A stretch of 64,000 nucleotides of DNA from a virus, in IMG/VR virus record IMGVR_UViG_3300045988_117314, positions 1 to 64,000 of that record; one strand, written 5' to 3'. Below the pieces are notes generated by a model. The model did no database searches. It worked only from the letters and a program-made list of their open reading frames with translations, and was not told the DNA's origin. Position 1 is the stretch's first letter. Every line of letters starts with the position of its first letter. The translations under genes and the position numbers were made by a program. Of this stretch, positions 49,207-56,717 are shown one piece after another.

Positions 49207-49225
49207 GCCACAAATATATAAAAAA

Positions 49226-49250
49226 AGTCGGACAAGACACATGTCCGACT
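49226..49250 (-). terminator. intrinsic terminator: 9-bp stem AGTCGGACA/TGTCCGACT, 7-nt loop, U-run on - strand
   Basis: Perfect inverted repeat. On the - strand it is followed by TTTTTTTATATA (+ strand A-run 49214-49225). Downstream of - gene 49416..49733. Confidence 0.5.
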
Positions 49251-49415
49251 TTATATTACTTTGATTCGTTTTCAAACCGCTTTATAAGAGAAGCAATATC
49301 ATCACCACAAATAAACATCATTCGACGTTCTTCTTTTGGTTTATGAGACACTGGAATGGTTTTGTTTATCTTAATCTGATTCGCCAGACCTCTGCCTAAA
49401 CGAATATCAACTTTT

Positions 49416-50097: not shown

Positions 50098-50403
50098 TTA
50101 ATACAAATCTTCTGAATACAACTGTTCTCTAATGGCATTCCTATCTACCACCATCTCCTGATTATTGTTTCTAACAAGTTCAGACGCTTCCTCTCTTGTT
50201 AAAAACCGATTCTTGCTTGTCAAAAATCCTTGAACACTGCGGTTTTTATGGGCTATACCGTATGCCGCAAGTTGAGATAGTATAGAGGGGTGTCTCAATC
50301 CACAGAACACGGTTCCGGATGGTATATTGGTGGGCTGATAGGGACGCTTCTTGCCGTCCTGCACCCAGATGGCAGCGCATATCACGATTTCTTTATTGCA
50401 CAT
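50098..50403 (-). CDS. hypothetical protein (101 aa)
   Basis: ATG 50403. Confidence 0.5.
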   Translation of the reverse strand: MCNKEIVICAAIWVQDGKKRPYQPTNIPSGTVFCGLRHPSILSQLAAYGIAHKNRSVQGFLTSKNRFLTREEASELVRNNNQEMVVDRNAIREQLYSEDLY

Positions 50404-50405
50404 GA

Positions 50406-50681
50406 CTATAAATTTAATATTCCGTTTTTACCAATATGTTTCTTTTCTTCTTCAGTAGGCCATTCTTTCTTGAACTTACCGTGCCACGTTCCAGGAACTA
50501 CCACCACTTCGCCTCCCTTACTATATTCAATAGCGGCACATTCAGAACAAAGAGGCTTGCCTTCATATCCCTTTAGCGACTTATCGTAAATACGATTCTT
50601 ACAAGGTCTTATAAGAGCCCAGTAATATGATGTGGCTGTATTATCTATACAGCCACATTTTGAACATACAAACAAACTCAT
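50406..50681 (-). CDS. zinc-ribbon protein (CSKCGC...CSEC)
   Basis: ATG 50681; two CxxC pairs. Confidence 0.5.
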   Translation of the reverse strand: MSLFVCSKCGCIDNTATSYYWALIRPCKNRIYDKSLKGYEGKPLCSECAAIEYSKGGEVVVVPGTWHGKFKKEWPTEEEKKHIGKNGILNL

Positions 50682-51541
50682 CCCGCAATCTCCCAGTCAT
50701 TAGACATAATATCATGTTCGGTTGGATTCCAATTTGATGCTACTTTTTGACCTGTATCTACCATCAATATATTTACGTCAAACATACAGATATACTTTTT
50801 ACCCCAATCGATTCTTTTTATCTTACGACCTAATTTAAGCCGTTCTAAAGCCTGTTCGAATGTCATGCCACGACGAGGCAGTTTGAGATACTTTTTAAGT
50901 CTGTCGGCAGCTTCATTTGGTGTATGGCCATCGTATTCGAAAGCGGTTTCTCTTTCAGGAACATCAAACAAATCCCAGTATTTGCTTTCATAGTGATTAG
51001 ATACCTGACCGGTAGGCAGGATCGCCATCACAATAAACCAATCATCAGAACCGAAGCATTTTTCTCCGTCGCTGTGTCTCCTTGATTTGCAAACTTCAAC
51101 CTGTCCGCTTCTGGCTAATAGATTAAAGAAGGCAGCGTTATACAACATGCTATACCGATACAATTCATTGAAAGTGTGGTATCCGTCAGAGACTTCTCCC
51201 ACGTCTACAGGCTTCTTGTTTTGAATACTACCCAAAATCTTCTCTACATAGAGCTGTATTTTATACAGACCCATTTCGGTGTGGCCGTATTTGTTCAAGA
51301 TATTATTGACATCGTATTGTATATTAAAATCTTTTTCAAATTCTACTTCAGGATGATTAGGATAGAAGTAATCTACTGATGCTTCTAACACTGACTTTAC
51401 GTGTTCTATTATCCTCGTAGCATCATCATGTTTAAAAAAATGCTTAAATCTTTCAACGAATTTAATATCTTCGTTGATTGCTGATTCGAACTCTTCTTTT
51501 GTCATTACTCTAACCACATCTTTAAAATCTTTTAATTCCAT
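50678..51541 (-). CDS. protein with C-terminal DUF2829-like domain (domain family of Thoeris anti-defence Tad2); N-terminal ~220 aa unknown
   Basis: C-terminus MTFEQALERLKLGRKIKRIDWGKKYICMFD...NWNPTEHDIMSNDWEIA matches the recalled DUF2829 pattern (MtFeeAl.alk.Gkkv.R..W....yi........w.ps..Dlla.DWei). Confidence 0.45.
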   Translation of the reverse strand: MELKDFKDVVRVMTKEEFESAINEDIKFVERFKHFFKHDDATRIIEHVKSVLEASVDYFYPNHPEVEFEKDFNIQYDVNNILNKYGHTEMGLYKIQLYVEKILGSIQNKKPVDVGEVSDGYHTFNELYRYSMLYNAAFFNLLARSGQVEVCKSRRHSDGEKCFGSDDWFIVMAILPTGQVSNHYESKYWDLFDVPERETAFEYDGHTPNEAADRLKKYLKLPRRGMTFEQALERLKLGRKIKRIDWGKKYICMFDVNILMVDTGQKVASNWNPTEHDIMSNDWEIAG

Positions 51542-51564: not shown

Positions 51565-52200
51565 CTATACTTTCTTTATCCTACAATACAAACCCCACAA
51601 AAACTCAGCGGAGAAACTATCCCATACATTATTCTTCTGCCAAAGTTCTACTTTGTTAACAAACCAAGACCATATGGGACCCTCATATGAAGAATCAGAT
51701 GATGATCCCAATCCGATTTTCTCCATTTCATTCGCCACATCAGAATAAGGATCTAAATCGACTCCCCTAATCATGTTAATAATATCATCCTTGTCTAACG
51801 TGAATTGAAACCGCTCCTTGTTAGTAGGCGGATCTTGATTCAATTTACCAGTCGCAAGCCATTCTCCATCATGATACAATTCGGCAAGTTTCTTTACCTT
51901 ATTTTTAAGAAAAGAATACTCTTGTGTGACTTCTATAAAATCAGCTTCGTTAGCTTTACCTTCTATGAAGATAACGGTTTTGCTTCCAAGTCTATGATCG
52001 TCTAAGCTTGCCGGGATTCCCAATATCGTCCATCCTTTAAACTCAGCTATCTTAAAACGCATAACGTCAAACACCTTATAGAAATCATCACAATCTACAG
52101 ATTCTATTACCTTAATATCCTCTTCTGTGAATTTACCTCGTATTGGAATAACGTGATGACCGGGGCAGCCATCGGTTCCGAAATATGCGATTCTAACCAC
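51565..52200 (-). CDS. hypothetical protein (211 aa); GTG start
   Basis: Maximal ORF begins with GTG at 52200 and there is no in-frame ATG near the N-terminus. Confidence 0.45.
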   Translation of the reverse strand: MVRIAYFGTDGCPGHHVIPIRGKFTEEDIKVIESVDCDDFYKVFDVMRFKIAEFKGWTILGIPASLDDHRLGSKTVIFIEGKANEADFIEVTQEYSFLKNKVKKLAELYHDGEWLATGKLNQDPPTNKERFQFTLDKDDIINMIRGVDLDPYSDVANEMEKIGLGSSSDSSYEGPIWSWFVNKVELWQKNNVWDSFSAEFLWGLYCRIKKV

Positions 52201-52660: not shown

Positions 52661-52740
52661 ATAGAATACTTTTTCAACAAAAGTACGACATTCATGAATT
52701 AATTAGATTTAAAATAAAACAATATGAATTAAAATAAAAA

Positions 52741-52765
52741 CCCGATACGTTAAAATCGCATCGGG
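52741..52765 (-). terminator. intrinsic terminator on the - strand: CCCGAUGCG-AUUUUAA-CGUAUCGGG, then a U-rich tract
   Basis: Inverted repeat CCCGATACG...CGCATCGGG. The single mismatch becomes a G-U pair in the - strand RNA. A/T-rich run downstream on the - strand (52700-52740). Confidence 0.5.
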
Positions 52766-53052
52766 CCTGGTATTGAAAAAAATAGGTTCAGATCTTGGGT
52801 AAAGATTCGAGCCAATTTTTAACATCTTTATATTTAGGGTCTTTGTCTATTCTATCTTTCAGTTCATGCAATGCTGAGTCCATAACCGTATTCGGTACGC
52901 CAATCAACTCTCCTATTAAATACAATGGGGTTTTATTCGATTTAGATTCGTGTGCTATATTCATATCCCAAAAAAAGTTATGTGAAACAAACCGGCCACG
53001 GGTATTCTATTGCCCGCCGACCGGTATAATATTTTTATTCCTTTTTTTCCAA

Positions 53053-53515: not shown

Positions 53516-53884
53516 TCAATAAGAACGACCTCTGCCACGTCCGCGACCTCTACGCATCTGAGGTCCGTCACCGTAGTATCTGTCGTCTCCATAGTAATCG
53601 GTCGGGTAGGATTCGTAACCCATCCTCCGGTATTCCCGGTCCTCCATTTCATGACGACGTTCGCGCTCTTCAAGCCTTCTTTCCCTTTCTTCCAGCTCGT
53701 TTTCGCGTTCTTCCATTTCCTTCATCTTCTCATGCATACCGTAATGGTCGTAAATACCACCACCGTACCCCATGTACGTCCCATCAGAACGCCGGCTTCT
53801 GCCTCTGCCTCCACCTCGTCTGTCTTCTATCTCGTCATATCCAGGATATTCTCTGTGTCCTGAATTTAAATCATATACTATCAT
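53516..53884 (-). CDS. Arg/Gly/Glu-rich protein (RGG/RGR repeats, ERERRLEERERR)
   Basis: ATG 53884; low-complexity RG-rich termini typical of nucleic-acid-binding proteins. Confidence 0.5.
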   Translation of the reverse strand: MIVYDLNSGHREYPGYDEIEDRRGGGRGRSRRSDGTYMGYGGGIYDHYGMHEKMKEMEERENELEERERRLEERERRHEMEDREYRRMGYESYPTDYYGDDRYYGDGPQMRRGRGRGRGRSY

Positions 53885-56063: not shown

Positions 56064-56717
56064 TCAAGCCATGTCACACAACTTGAATTTATATTTATCA
56101 ATTATATCATTCAAATCGCAATCTGATAAGTTGAACCATTCTCTGTATATCCCTTTGATATCAAATCTTGCATGAAGCTCGCTCTCTATATCTTTATTCA
56201 CATAAGCTATTAATGTTAAGTTATCTTCTACAATAGACAACCCAGATAGCCTTCTTTTTACATCAGAGCTTTTACCTATTTTATAAAAACCATTATTATT
56301 ATTTCTTATTATATATGTAAAATATTTTATACATTTTTTATTATACCTATCGATAGATCTATGTATTATATCTAATACCCGATCGTCATTTTTAATATTA
56401 CAACAATCAAATATATCATAAATAAAATCTTTAAATAAAGATCTATCACACTTCATATAGATGATACACAGAATCGATTTGGGGAATAAATAATAGTCAT
56501 GCCTAAATACATGACTATTATTATCTATTATTTGTTCTCCATTATTATCATATCTATATGATATATAATCTATTCCATCCTTAAAATTAAAAGATGATAT
56601 TACATCCTTAATCCAATGTTTAAAATCATACTTACATTCTAACAATTTATGAACATGTTTTGCGTCAATCATTTTTCTGTCGTTTATTAACACAAAAGGA
56701 ATACAAGTATTATCCAT
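56064..56717 (-). CDS. KilA-N-like N-terminal domain fused to T5orf172 (GIY-YIG-like) C-terminal domain; homing-endonuclease-like selfish gene candidate
   Basis: C-terminus GFYKIGKSSDVKRRLSGL...ELHARF...REWFNL matches the T5orf172 signature (YKIG.T.d...Rl..L). Very AT-rich codon usage. Flanked by ~700 bp of non-coding DNA. Confidence 0.6.
   Translation of the reverse strand: MDNTCIPFVLINDRKMIDAKHVHKLLECKYDFKHWIKDVISSFNFKDGIDYISYRYDNNGEQIIDNNSHVFRHDYYLFPKSILCIIYMKCDRSLFKDFIYDIFDCCNIKNDDRVLDIIHRSIDRYNKKCIKYFTYIIRNNNNGFYKIGKSSDVKRRLSGLSIVEDNLTLIAYVNKDIESELHARFDIKGIYREWFNLSDCDLNDIIDKYKFKLCDMA

What the first reader, a model, noticed from the sequence alone, without database searches (positions are those of the whole stretch)
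50678..51541. Late-module protein with DUF2829 (Tad2-family)-like C-terminal domain
The last ~65 aa of this 287-aa protein (MTFEQALERLKLGRKIKRIDWGKKYICMFD...NWNPTEHDIMSNDWEIA) match the compact DUF2829 fold pattern. DUF2829 is the family of Tad2, a phage protein that sequesters Thoeris signalling nucleotides. Here the domain is fused to an unknown ~220-aa N-terminal region and sits among small late genes rather than early genes. It could be a fused nucleotide sponge with a novel partner domain.
Basis: partly seen in the sequence, partly recalled or inferred. Interest (0 to 1): 0.6.

Follow-up and report, generated by a model that had tools for sequence, protein, structure and literature searches.

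The report
WDGH protein fused to mini-Tad2 domain
This gut-phage gene joins a widespread, uncharacterised "WDGH" domain to an unusually stripped-down copy of Tad2, a phage domain known to soak up bacterial immune signals. It is probably an accessory counter-defence gene of a catalogued architecture, not a new kind of system.

Summary
A 287-aa ORF lies at 50678-51541, on the minus strand. Its last 60 residues match Pfam PF11195 (Tad2-like/DUF2829) at E=6.4e-11. Their AlphaFold model superposes on solved Tad2 structures (Foldseek probability 1.0).

- **The architecture is not new.** WDGH+Tad2-like recurs in 98 of the 120 best database hits. Some relatives also carry the validated sponge domain Sequestin.
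- **This Tad2 copy is the most reduced one seen.** It has no β2-β3 insertion (Trp-Trp spacing 25, against 48-66 in solved Tad2s). It lacks the Asn of the GWNGK loop and has His in place of the adenine-contacting Thr/Ser. It keeps both pocket Trp residues and the Asp.
- **The two modules are separable.** Related phages carry the mini-Tad2 alone (62-66 aa) after independent deletions or single-base linker shifts. Others carry WDGH alone.

Best reading: two autonomous accessory modules joined in a hypervariable island. The mini-Tad2 is a possible ADPR-signal sponge, but binding is unproven.

The parts
50678..51541 (-). Whole gene: 287-aa protein made of a variable N-terminal module, a WDGH domain, a linker and a mini-Tad2-like domain. 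The stop is TGA at 50678-50680.
   Evidence: ORF list and translation. The cluster of near-identical proteins has 2378 member sequences. The start MELKDF is shared with homologues.
51212..51541 (-). N-terminal variable helical module (aa 1-110) with no family match. Residues 70-110 (51212-51334) are a 41-aa insertion absent from csAssE-Sib and most relatives.
   Evidence: No Pfam, NCBIfam or PADLOC hit. Predicted helices, pLDDT 29-72. Indel seen in alignments. In relatives the module is replaced by other N-termini, including Bro-N.
50891..51199 (-). WDGH domain (aa 115-217), carrying the motifs SDGYHTF, KSRRHSDG, SNHY and YDGH.
50867..50890 (-). Linker (aa 218-225, YLKLPRRG). M226, just after it, is the start codon of the stand-alone mini-Tad2 ORFs in relatives.
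   Evidence: In L058 a 1-nt deletion in this linker yields a complete 226-aa WDGH ORF and an ATGA-overlapping 62-aa Tad2 ORF.
50681..50866 (-). Mini-Tad2-like (DUF2829) domain, aa 226-287. It has helix α1, the loop DW246GKK, a tight β2-β3 hairpin with no insertion, and W271-N-P-T274-E-H276-D277 followed by D282-W283.
   Evidence: PF11195 at E=6.4e-11. Foldseek to SPO1 Tad2 and ModTad2. Residue mapping. Trp-Trp spacing 25, against 48, 48 and 66 in solved Tad2s.
50406..50681 (-). Downstream 91-aa Cys-rich gene, translationally coupled to the target (ATGA overlap) and syntenic in all relatives.
   Evidence: Sequence gggATGAgt at 50682-50675. phrog_11861. Synteny.
52738..52768 (-). Terminator-like hairpin (12-bp stem plus T-run) upstream of the cassette that contains the gene.
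   Evidence: Consensus scan: 12 terminator-like sites found, against 5.5 +/- 2.2 in shuffles.
52678..52685 (-). TACTTTTG, a match to the Bacteroidota -7 promoter box TAnnTTTG, 17 nt before the ATG (52660) of the cassette's first gene. Weak evidence.
   Evidence: Read directly from the sequence. The full -33/-7 pattern is not enriched in the window.
49224..49252 (-). Terminator-like hairpin (11-bp stem plus T-run) at the downstream end of the 9-gene cassette.

Best explanation
The gene encodes a facultative fusion of two autonomous phage accessory modules. It sits in a hypervariable small-gene island of a roughly 150-kb human-gut phage.

Shown: the C-terminal 61-62 residues are a minimised Tad2-family domain that keeps the Tad2 core fold.

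Inferred: this domain self-associates through helix α1 and forms an inter-subunit pocket lined by W246, W271 and D277. The pocket captures an ADP-ribose-derived immune signal (a Thoeris-type gcADPR or His-ADPR-like molecule) and so blunts TIR-based host defence.

The domain lacks the β2-β3 insertion, the loop Asn and the adenine-contacting Thr. I therefore expect altered or weakened specificity compared with SPO1 Tad2. I expect no cyclic-dinucleotide binding of the HgmTad2 type.

Shown: the WDGH domain is an independent, strongly constrained unit of unknown biochemistry.

Inferred: WDGH is a second counter-defence activity. Its four invariant His plus Asp and Arg suggest a small-molecule-binding or hydrolytic site. 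The argument rests on its fusion to Tad2-like and, in relatives, to Sequestin.
For: Family and fold membership of the C-terminal domain.

Pocket residues W25, W73 and D79 of SPO1 Tad2 (described in 10.1101/2023.05.01.538930) are kept as W246, W271 and D277. They are invariant or nearly so in all fused variants. T65 is kept as T263, I63 becomes V261, and S76 becomes T274.

The C-terminal half (257-286) and the N-terminal half (225-254) each align without gaps to SPO1 Tad2, so every pocket-forming element is present.

The module is selectively retained. Two independent clean deletions remove WDGH but spare the ORF that starts at M226: 699 bp in L020 and 1302 bp in L022. Two different 1-nt deletions split the gene and leave the Tad2 ORF intact (L021, L058). 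Against the diverged orthologue L012, dN/dS is 0.22.

More distant WDGH fusions carry a canonical long Tad2 with GWNGKG and SWVPSISD, scoring 67-69 bits. Some also carry Sequestin, PF21825. PMC12265669 showed Sequestin to be a 3'cADPR sponge, discovered because it is fused to Tad2, and showed that an Acb4-Tad2 fusion is active against both Thoeris and CBASS.

The island is hypervariable. It shows presence/absence of the 211-aa gene, IS605/TnpB insertions, and swapping of the Tad2 cassette between genes that are otherwise about 94% identical.
Against: The Asn of the GWNGK loop is Gly here (G247). That Asn contacts the phosphates (N26 in SPO1, N22 in HgmTad2), and the W21A/N22A mutant markedly reduces binding. 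It is present in all solved Tad2s.

T78 becomes H276, D67 becomes Q265 and H71 becomes S269.

The 25-residue insertion is missing. In SPO1 Tad2 it contains α2, part of the V-shaped dimer interface, so the tetramer may not form.

The PF11195 score is lower than for canonical fused forms (43 bits against 67-69).

Against its closest relatives, the Tad2 part shows 0 synonymous and 2-5 non-synonymous differences. The counts are too small to show constraint.

No oligomer model, ligand docking or experiment was possible here. The host and its defence repertoire are unknown.

Only 4 of 148 WDGH cluster representatives carry a Tad2-like domain. Other WDGH fusions are to DNA-binding domains (Sigma70_r4, Myb, FaeA, YccV, Bro-N), so guilt by fusion is weak for WDGH.
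Confidence: 0.45

Rival explanations
1. The Tad2-like domain is a degenerate relic that no longer binds immune signals. It serves as an oligomerisation or scaffold tail, or binds an unrelated ligand, for the WDGH module, which carries the protein's real function.
For: The loop Asn, T78, D67 and H71 equivalents are lost, and so is the whole insertion. Within the fused family there is a graded reduction from canonical forms (spacing 60, WNGKG) to 42, 40, 36, 31, 29 and 25, with a variable β1-β2 loop. WDGH is far more constrained than the tail (dN/dS 0.06-0.12; 94-97% against 37-61% amino-acid identity between orthologues). WDGH works alone in most phages.
Against: Stand-alone 62-66-aa mini-Tad2 ORFs survive independent deletions of WDGH. 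A mere tail of WDGH should not be kept in that way. Both pocket Trp residues and the Asp stay invariant. WDGH-only proteins need no such tail.
Confidence: 0.3
2. The domain acts like AcrIIA7, a DUF2829 protein recovered as a Cas9 inhibitor, so the protein is an anti-CRISPR.
For: AcrIIA7 chains (8kbi, 9kzr) are in the same family and match the domain profile at E=3e-14 and 3e-13. The phage comes from the human gut, as did the libraries that yielded AcrIIA7.
Against: The Tad2 discovery paper notes that Cas9 binding and mechanism were never shown for AcrIIA7. The same protein (HgmTad2) was shown to be a gcADPR/cGG sponge. The window copy lacks the insertion that makes up a large part of HgmTad2.
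Confidence: 0.05
3. Because of its position among virion genes, the protein is a late morphogenesis or virion-associated factor. It might be packaged and ejected with the DNA, not act as a cytoplasmic sponge.
For: It is on the same strand as giant virion proteins, 1.9 kb upstream of a 2137-aa protein that matches phrog_37651 'virion structural protein'. In cultured phages, WDGH genes sit inside late operons: ε34 gp6 between coat and gp4, and pneumococcal IPP39 between portal and a MuF-like protein.
Against: The gene lies in a small-gene cassette set off by terminator-like hairpins. The locus tolerates deletion of WDGH, of the neighbouring gene and of the Tad2 part, so it is dispensable for assembly. 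In A511 and Bacillus phages, WDGH genes sit among small early-type genes. There is no similarity to any structural protein family.
Confidence: 0.08

Closest known systems
SPO1 Tad2 (Gp34.65; PDB 8SME/8SMF/8SMG), the founding Thoeris anti-defence 2 sponge
   Same: Same Pfam family. Same core fold: α1, antiparallel sheet, α3. The model superposes at target-normalised TM 0.66-0.74. W25, W73, D79 and T65 are conserved. Gapless alignment on both sides of the insertion.
   Different: SPO1 Tad2 is a stand-alone 89-aa homotetramer. The window domain is 61-62 aa and lacks residues equivalent to SPO1 34-58 (α2, F44, V-dimer interface). It has G for N26, H for T78, Q for D67 and S for H71. It is fused behind about 225 other residues.
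HgmTad2 / AcrIIA7 (PDB 8KBI and related), a Bacteroides-phage Tad2 that binds gcADPR and cGG/cGAMP
   Same: Same family. Gut-phage origin. N-terminus MTFxQALExLK is nearly identical.
   Different: HgmTad2 binds cyclic dinucleotides with a 41-residue insertion. That insertion is completely absent here, so this second pocket cannot exist in that form.
ModTad2 (PDB 8V3E/9EIB), a Tad2 clade that sequesters His-ADPR of type II Thoeris
   Same: Same family and fold. It shows that Tad2 pockets can be retuned to other ADPR conjugates.
   Different: ModTad2 keeps GWNGK, WTPSVSD and the insertion. The preprint read here left open whether its ligand sits in the canonical pocket or in the insertion-dependent second pocket.
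Multi-sponge fusions: Acb4-Tad2 (Pasteurella phage Pm86), Sequestin-Tad2 and Sequestin-Acb4 (PMC12265669)
   Same: A Tad2-like domain covalently joined to another small autonomous phage module. Relatives of this protein are WDGH-Sequestin-Tad2 triple fusions.
   Different: In those cases both partners are validated sponges. Here the partner (WDGH) has no known activity, and the window protein has no Sequestin domain.
WDGH-domain proteins (PF25311): Listeria phage A511 gp21, Salmonella phage ε34 gp6 / ST64T / L Orf186, pneumococcal prophage proteins
   Same: Same domain with the same invariant His, Asp and Arg set. All are accessory, uncharacterised genes.
   Different: Most are stand-alone proteins of 100-190 aa or have other partners. 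Only about 3% of cluster representatives carry a Tad2-like tail. The window copy has S131 in place of the near-invariant Arg.

Membership tests
Tad2-like / DUF2829 (PF11195) | Significant match to the family profile, above the curated cutoff | tested here: met
   43.1 bits against a cutoff of 25, E=6.4e-11, profile positions 1-72 of 73. The family-level profile hits solved Tad2 chains at E=3.7e-17.
Tad2-like / DUF2829 (PF11195) | Core fold: N-terminal helix, antiparallel β-sheet and a short C-terminal helix, superposable on solved Tad2 | tested here: met
   Model pLDDT about 87-94 for the domain. The 11 best Foldseek PDB hits are all Tad2, with probability 1.00 and target-normalised TM 0.57-0.74.
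Tad2 sponge (functional sense) | Pocket Trp pair and Asp (SPO1 W25, W73, D79; HgmTad2 W21, W87, D93) | tested here: met
   W246, W271 and D277 are present. They are invariant or at least 90% conserved in the fused family.
Tad2 sponge (functional sense) | Asn of the GWNGK loop, which contacts the diphosphate (SPO1 N26; HgmTad2 N22) | tested here: not met
   The window has DW-G247-KK. All solved Tad2s have WNGK. The W21A/N22A mutant markedly reduces binding.
Tad2 sponge (functional sense) | W-x-[PA]-S-x-[TS]-D motif (SPO1 S76, T78) | tested here: not met
   The window has W-N-P-T-E-H-D. S to T is conservative, but the adenine-contacting T/S is His276.
Tad2 sponge (functional sense) | β2-β3 (β2-β5) insertion that forms α2, the V-shaped dimer and, in long forms, the cyclic-dinucleotide pocket | tested here: not met
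   Trp-Trp spacing is 25, against 48 (SPO1, ModTad2) and 66 (HgmTad2). β2 and β3 are joined by a tight hairpin.
Tad2 sponge (functional sense) | Short stand-alone protein that forms a homotetramer with inter-subunit pockets | tested here: inconclusive
   The domain is fused here. Stand-alone 62-66-aa versions occur at the same locus in relatives. Oligomeric state could not be modelled with these tools.
Tad2 sponge (functional sense) | Binds gcADPR or His-ADPR and inhibits Thoeris | not testable with these tools
   Needs biochemistry and phage infection assays.
WDGH domain (PF25311) | Profile match and the conserved SDGYHTF, KS..H.DG, (N/Y)HY and (W/Y)DGH motifs | tested here: met
   120.2 bits, E=4.8e-35. 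Invariant H122, H156, H183, H206, D204 and R214 are present. Exception: S131 replaces the near-invariant Arg.
Sequestin (PF21825) | Profile match to the roughly 60-aa helical sponge domain | tested here: not met
   Absent from the window protein. Present between WDGH and Tad2 in relatives P0112-P0120.
Known anti-phage defence proteins (PADLOC) and NCBIfam named families | Any profile match | tested here: not met
   No hits.

The most novel reading that the evidence does not exclude
WDGH (PF25311) is a new family of phage counter-defence domains that bind or cleave nucleotide immune signals. It has about 3700 clusters at 50% identity, a high-confidence fold with no solved relative, four invariant histidines, and members in model phages such as A511, ε34, ST64T and pneumococcal prophages. 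On this reading the window protein is a two-activity anti-signalling protein, and its 62-aa 'mini-Tad2' is the smallest functional Tad2 sponge, with a retuned ligand specificity.
Probability: 0.2. Interest if true: 0.75.

Novelty: new variant of a known kind. Interest (0 to 1): 0.4.

Why it matters
Tad2 sponges are a main way phages escape TIR-based (Thoeris) immunity. A natural 61-62-residue version with no insertion and no loop Asn would show the minimum needed for signal capture. If it does not bind, it would show how such domains decay or are repurposed.

The more useful point concerns WDGH. It is a very widespread, strongly conserved phage domain with no known function or structural relative. 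Here it is joined to one validated sponge family, and in relatives to two. The same guilt-by-fusion logic recently uncovered Sequestin, so WDGH becomes a concrete and cheap candidate to test.

If neither module acts on immune signals, the gene is simply one more accessory gene of unknown function with a correct Pfam annotation.

Tried and rejected
- **NCBIfam and PADLOC** scans of the protein gave no hits.
- **Literature:** searches for 'WDGH', 'PF25311' and 'csAssE' found nothing relevant. The Sequestin preprint has no supplementary files held as text. A search for 'DUF2829' found no paper on WDGH fusions.
- **WDGH as a diverged Tad2 duplicate:** rejected; hhalign probability 0.2%.
- **Zinc site from C151/C162:** rejected. 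The two Cys are invariant only among close relatives. The wider family has V-H or W at those positions.
- **Host identification:** no tRNAs in the window. Cluster members carry no informative names.
- **Genome-contig scan:** found WDGH in many phyla but no further Tad2 fusion. The one apparent full-length match (Nocardia, L029) is a 571-aa coiled-coil/WDGH protein with no Tad2 motifs.
- **Full Bacteroidota -33/-7 promoter pattern:** not enriched in the window.
- **dN/dS for the Tad2 part against closest relatives:** uninformative, with 0 synonymous changes.
- **Pfam/PHROG scans of the neighbouring small genes:** no functional clue.
Full report
**1. Observation**

The interval 50678-51541 holds one ORF of 287 aa on the minus strand, from ATG at 51541 to TGA at 50680-50678. 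Its stop overlaps the ATG of the next gene in an ATGA.

Against Pfam the protein has two significant domains:
- WDGH (PF25311), residues 115-217, E=4.8e-35, 120 bits.
- Tad2-like (PF11195, formerly DUF2829), residues 226-285, E=6.4e-11, 43.1 bits against a cutoff of 25.

The single sequence hits solved Tad2 chains only weakly. A profile of the domain plus its fused relatives hits them strongly: SPO1 Tad2 at E=3.7e-17, ModTad2 at 6e-16, HgmTad2/AcrIIA7 at 3e-14, SptTad2 at 8e-12.

An AlphaFold2 model of the whole protein has pLDDT of about 87-94 over the C-terminal domain.

**2. What the rest of the protein is**

The '~220-aa unknown region' is not all unknown.

*Residues 1-110* are a poorly conserved helical module with no family match.
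- Residues 70-110 form a 41-aa insertion that csAssE-Sib and most relatives lack.
- In other relatives the module is replaced by different N-termini, including a Bro-N domain.

*Residues 115-217* are a WDGH domain.
- A phmmer scan of 1.84 billion cluster representatives finds 3675 WDGH clusters at E<=1e-3.
- The domain occurs as a stand-alone protein of about 100-125 aa, for example Listeria phage A511 gp21, named only 'WDGH domain-containing protein' or 'hypothetical'.
- It occurs in 196 deposited phage genomes, from Listeria, Bacillus, Salmonella P22-like, Lactococcus, Streptococcus and Klebsiella phages.
- It occurs in prophages or MAGs of many phyla.
- Of 148 representatives only 4 also carry Tad2-like. 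Single examples carry GNAT, Sigma70_r4, Myb, YccV or FaeA domains.
- H122, H156, H183, H206, D204, G205 and R214 are invariant across 82 stand-alone homologues at about 40% identity. S118, D119, G120, E126, K152, S153, D158 and G159 are nearly so.
- It is not a diverged Tad2 (hhalign probability 0.2%).
- No paper in the library mentions the family.

**3. The Tad2-like domain is a minimised variant**

Published structures define the gcADPR pocket of SPO1 Tad2 (10.1101/2023.05.01.538930):
- W25 and W73 give van der Waals contacts.
- N26 and D79 contact the phosphates and hydroxyls.
- T78, I63 and T65 contact the adenine.
- N26, D67, H71, W73, S76 and D79 coordinate waters.

In HgmTad2 the equivalent W21A/N22A and S90A/T92A/D93A mutants markedly reduce binding. 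Its cyclic-dinucleotide pocket is built almost entirely by the insertion between β2 and β5 (10.1101/2023.11.15.567273).

Using the gapless HMMER alignments, the SPO1 residues map to the window protein as follows:

| SPO1 Tad2 | Window protein | Status |
|---|---|---|
| W25 | W246 | kept |
| N26 | G247 | lost |
| I63 | V261 | conservative |
| T65 | T263 | kept |
| D67 | Q265 | changed |
| H71 | S269 | changed |
| W73 | W271 | kept |
| S76 | T274 | conservative |
| T78 | H276 | changed |
| D79 | D277 | kept |

All solved Tad2s read GWNGK and W-x-[PA]-S-x-[TS]-D. The window reads DWGKK and WNPTEHD.

The residues equivalent to SPO1 34-58 are absent. They form helix α2, which makes part of the V-shaped dimer interface, and include F44. 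β2 and β3 are joined by a tight hairpin. Trp-Trp spacing is 25 here, against 48 in SPO1 and ModTad2 and 66 in HgmTad2.

Within the WDGH-fused family there is a series:
- Canonical long domains have spacing 60, GWNGKG and SWVPSISD, and score 67-69 bits.
- Intermediates have spacing 42, 40, 36, 31 and 29.
- The window's 25 is the shortest intact form.
- The β1-β2 loop varies across the short forms: WGK, WKN, WGG, WND, WKD.
- F228, G238, R243, W246, P273, D277, D282 and W283 stay invariant.

It follows that cyclic-dinucleotide binding by the HgmTad2 mechanism is excluded. The canonical pocket is only partly preserved, and the quaternary structure is uncertain.

**4. Context and population variation**

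The window is about 94% identical to phage csAssE-Sib (OR575929, human gut, 151 kb). There the homologue is annotated 'protein of unknown function (DUF2829)'.

Layout of the window:
- The plus-strand block 1-42 kb encodes helicases, exonucleases and a methyltransferase.
- The minus-strand block encodes giant proteins, including a 2137-aa protein matching phrog_37651 'virion structural protein', interspersed with small genes.
- The target lies in a run of nine small, tightly packed genes bounded by terminator-like hairpins at 52768-52738 and 49252-49224.
- A TACTTTTG box sits 17 nt before the first ATG of that run. This is weak evidence.

'Late' therefore rests on position only. In cultured phages WDGH genes occur in both kinds of setting:
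- Among small early-type genes: A511 and Bacillus phages.
- As inserts in late morphogenesis operons: ε34 between coat and gp4, and IPP39 between portal and a MuF-like protein.

The locus is syntenic in many gut-phage contigs of about 140-165 kb and is highly variable:
- The neighbouring 211-aa gene is present or replaced by a 67-aa gene.
- IS605/TnpB elements are inserted nearby.
- The Tad2 cassette is swapped between otherwise near-identical genes. L015 is 94% identical in WDGH but 37% in Tad2.

The two modules are separable:
- L058 has a 1-nt deletion in the linker. It gives a complete 226-aa WDGH ORF and an ATGA-coupled 62-aa Tad2 ORF that starts at the codon equivalent to M226.
- L021 has a different 1-nt deletion that truncates WDGH.
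- L020 and L022 carry independent clean deletions of 699 and 1302 bp. Both remove WDGH, and in L022 also the 211-aa gene. Both stop just upstream of the intact 66-aa Tad2 ORF.
- WDGH-only truncations also exist (P0058, P0064, P0074).

Fused forms dominate numerically, with clusters of 2378, 1026 and 812 sequences.

Selection:
- WDGH dN/dS is 0.06-0.12 against three diverged orthologues.
- The Tad2 part gives 0.22 against L012, with saturated dS.
- Against the closest relatives the Tad2 part shows 0 synonymous and 2-5 non-synonymous changes. That fits a recently shared cassette but is statistically uninformative.

**5. Mechanism**

Shown:
- The protein has a three-module architecture.
- The C-terminal domain has family and fold membership in Tad2.
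- Four of the ten mapped SPO1 Tad2 contact residues are identical and two more are conservatively replaced. The loop Asn, the Thr/Ser and the insertion are lost.
- The two modules are autonomous and separable.
- The locus is hypervariable.

Inferred (confidence about 0.45): the mini-Tad2 self-associates and sequesters an ADPR-derived immune signal, with altered specificity. The fusion simply co-delivers it with a second accessory activity, WDGH.

Support for an anti-signalling theme comes from relatives that place Sequestin between WDGH and Tad2. PMC12265669 found Sequestin by its fusion to Tad2 and showed it to be a 3'cADPR sponge. The same work showed an Acb4-Tad2 fusion active against both Thoeris and CBASS.

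Main rival (about 0.3): the tail is degenerate, no longer binds signals, and serves WDGH as a scaffold or binds something else. This is countered by its retention after WDGH deletion. Anti-CRISPR activity and a virion role are minor alternatives.

**6. Comparison, novelty and verdict**

By sequence and fold the C-terminal domain is a member of PF11195. Three defining features of the functional sponge were tested and not met: the loop Asn, the T/S of the C-terminal motif, and the insertion. I therefore file it as a variant of the Tad2 kind, not as a Tad2 sponge.

The architecture is already indexed in Pfam-based annotation, and a GenBank homologue is labelled DUF2829, so the finding is not categorically new.

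Its value lies in two testable leads:
- A natural minimal Tad2 of 61-62 residues.
- WDGH as a very widespread, structurally orphan candidate counter-defence domain.

Interest 0.4. Most novel reading: WDGH is a new signal-targeting family and the mini-Tad2 is a functional, retuned sponge (probability about 0.2, interest 0.75 if true).

Noticed in passing
window 51565-52200 (-): A 211-aa ORF lies immediately upstream of the target and has no Pfam, PHROG or NCBIfam hit. It is a presence/absence polymorphism among related phages: absent in csAssE-Sib, L005-L008, L012 and L015, where a 67-aa gene sits instead, and present in L014, L020 and L021.
   Followed up: partly
L012 4351-5208; L020 3394-4533; L009 10994-12166: IS605 OrfB/TnpB (Cas12f1-like_TNB) elements are inserted within or next to the same small-gene island in related phage contigs. 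This marks the region as a hotspot for insertions.
   Followed up: no
window 51149-51151 (-), codon for residue 131 of the protein: The window's WDGH domain has Ser131 where 346 of 355 family sequences examined have Arg. The change is shared with the 2378-member cluster P0001, so it is a lineage trait and not an error.
   Followed up: partly
window 50406-50681 (-): A 91-aa Cys-rich protein (CSKCGC...CSEC, zinc-ribbon-like; phrog_11861) is translationally coupled to the target by an ATGA overlap. It is syntenic in all relatives, including those that lost WDGH.
   Followed up: partly
window 50098-50403 (-): The homologues of this 101-aa protein in related loci are annotated PF26092 (T4_Y16D), and it matches phrog_839. 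Some database proteins join fragments of it to WDGH fragments (P0073, P0104). These may be chimeric assemblies or recombinants.
   Followed up: partly
window 49224-49252 and 52738-52768 (-); 52678-52685 (-): Two terminator-like hairpins bracket a nine-gene cassette. A TAnnTTTG box (TACTTTTG) lies 17 nt before its first ATG. This suggests a separate transcription unit and a Bacteroidota host.
   Followed up: partly
window 56064-56717 (-): A 217-aa protein combines an AntA antirepressor N-terminal domain with a T5orf172/MUG113/GIY-YIG-like domain.
   Followed up: no
window 53516-53884 (-): A 122-aa protein is extremely charged and low in complexity, rich in R, E, G and Y (ERERRLEERERRHEMEDREYRR...RGRGRGRGRSY). 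It has no family match.
   Followed up: no
window about 42.1-42.3 kb: The coding strand switches and the GC skew changes sign here, between a plus-strand replication module (helicases, exonucleases, methyltransferase) and a minus-strand arm with giant proteins of 2137, 758 and at least 1229 aa.
   Followed up: partly
L003 3821-4381 (phage ε34 gp6); L018 2920-3315 (phage IPP39); L002 3848-4303 (Bacillus phage Nate gp134): In cultured phages, WDGH genes sit as inserts inside late head operons: between coat and gp4 in ε34, and between portal and a MuF-like protein in IPP39. In Bacillus phage Nate the WDGH gene overlaps a NADAR-family (ADP-ribose-processing) gene.
   Followed up: partly
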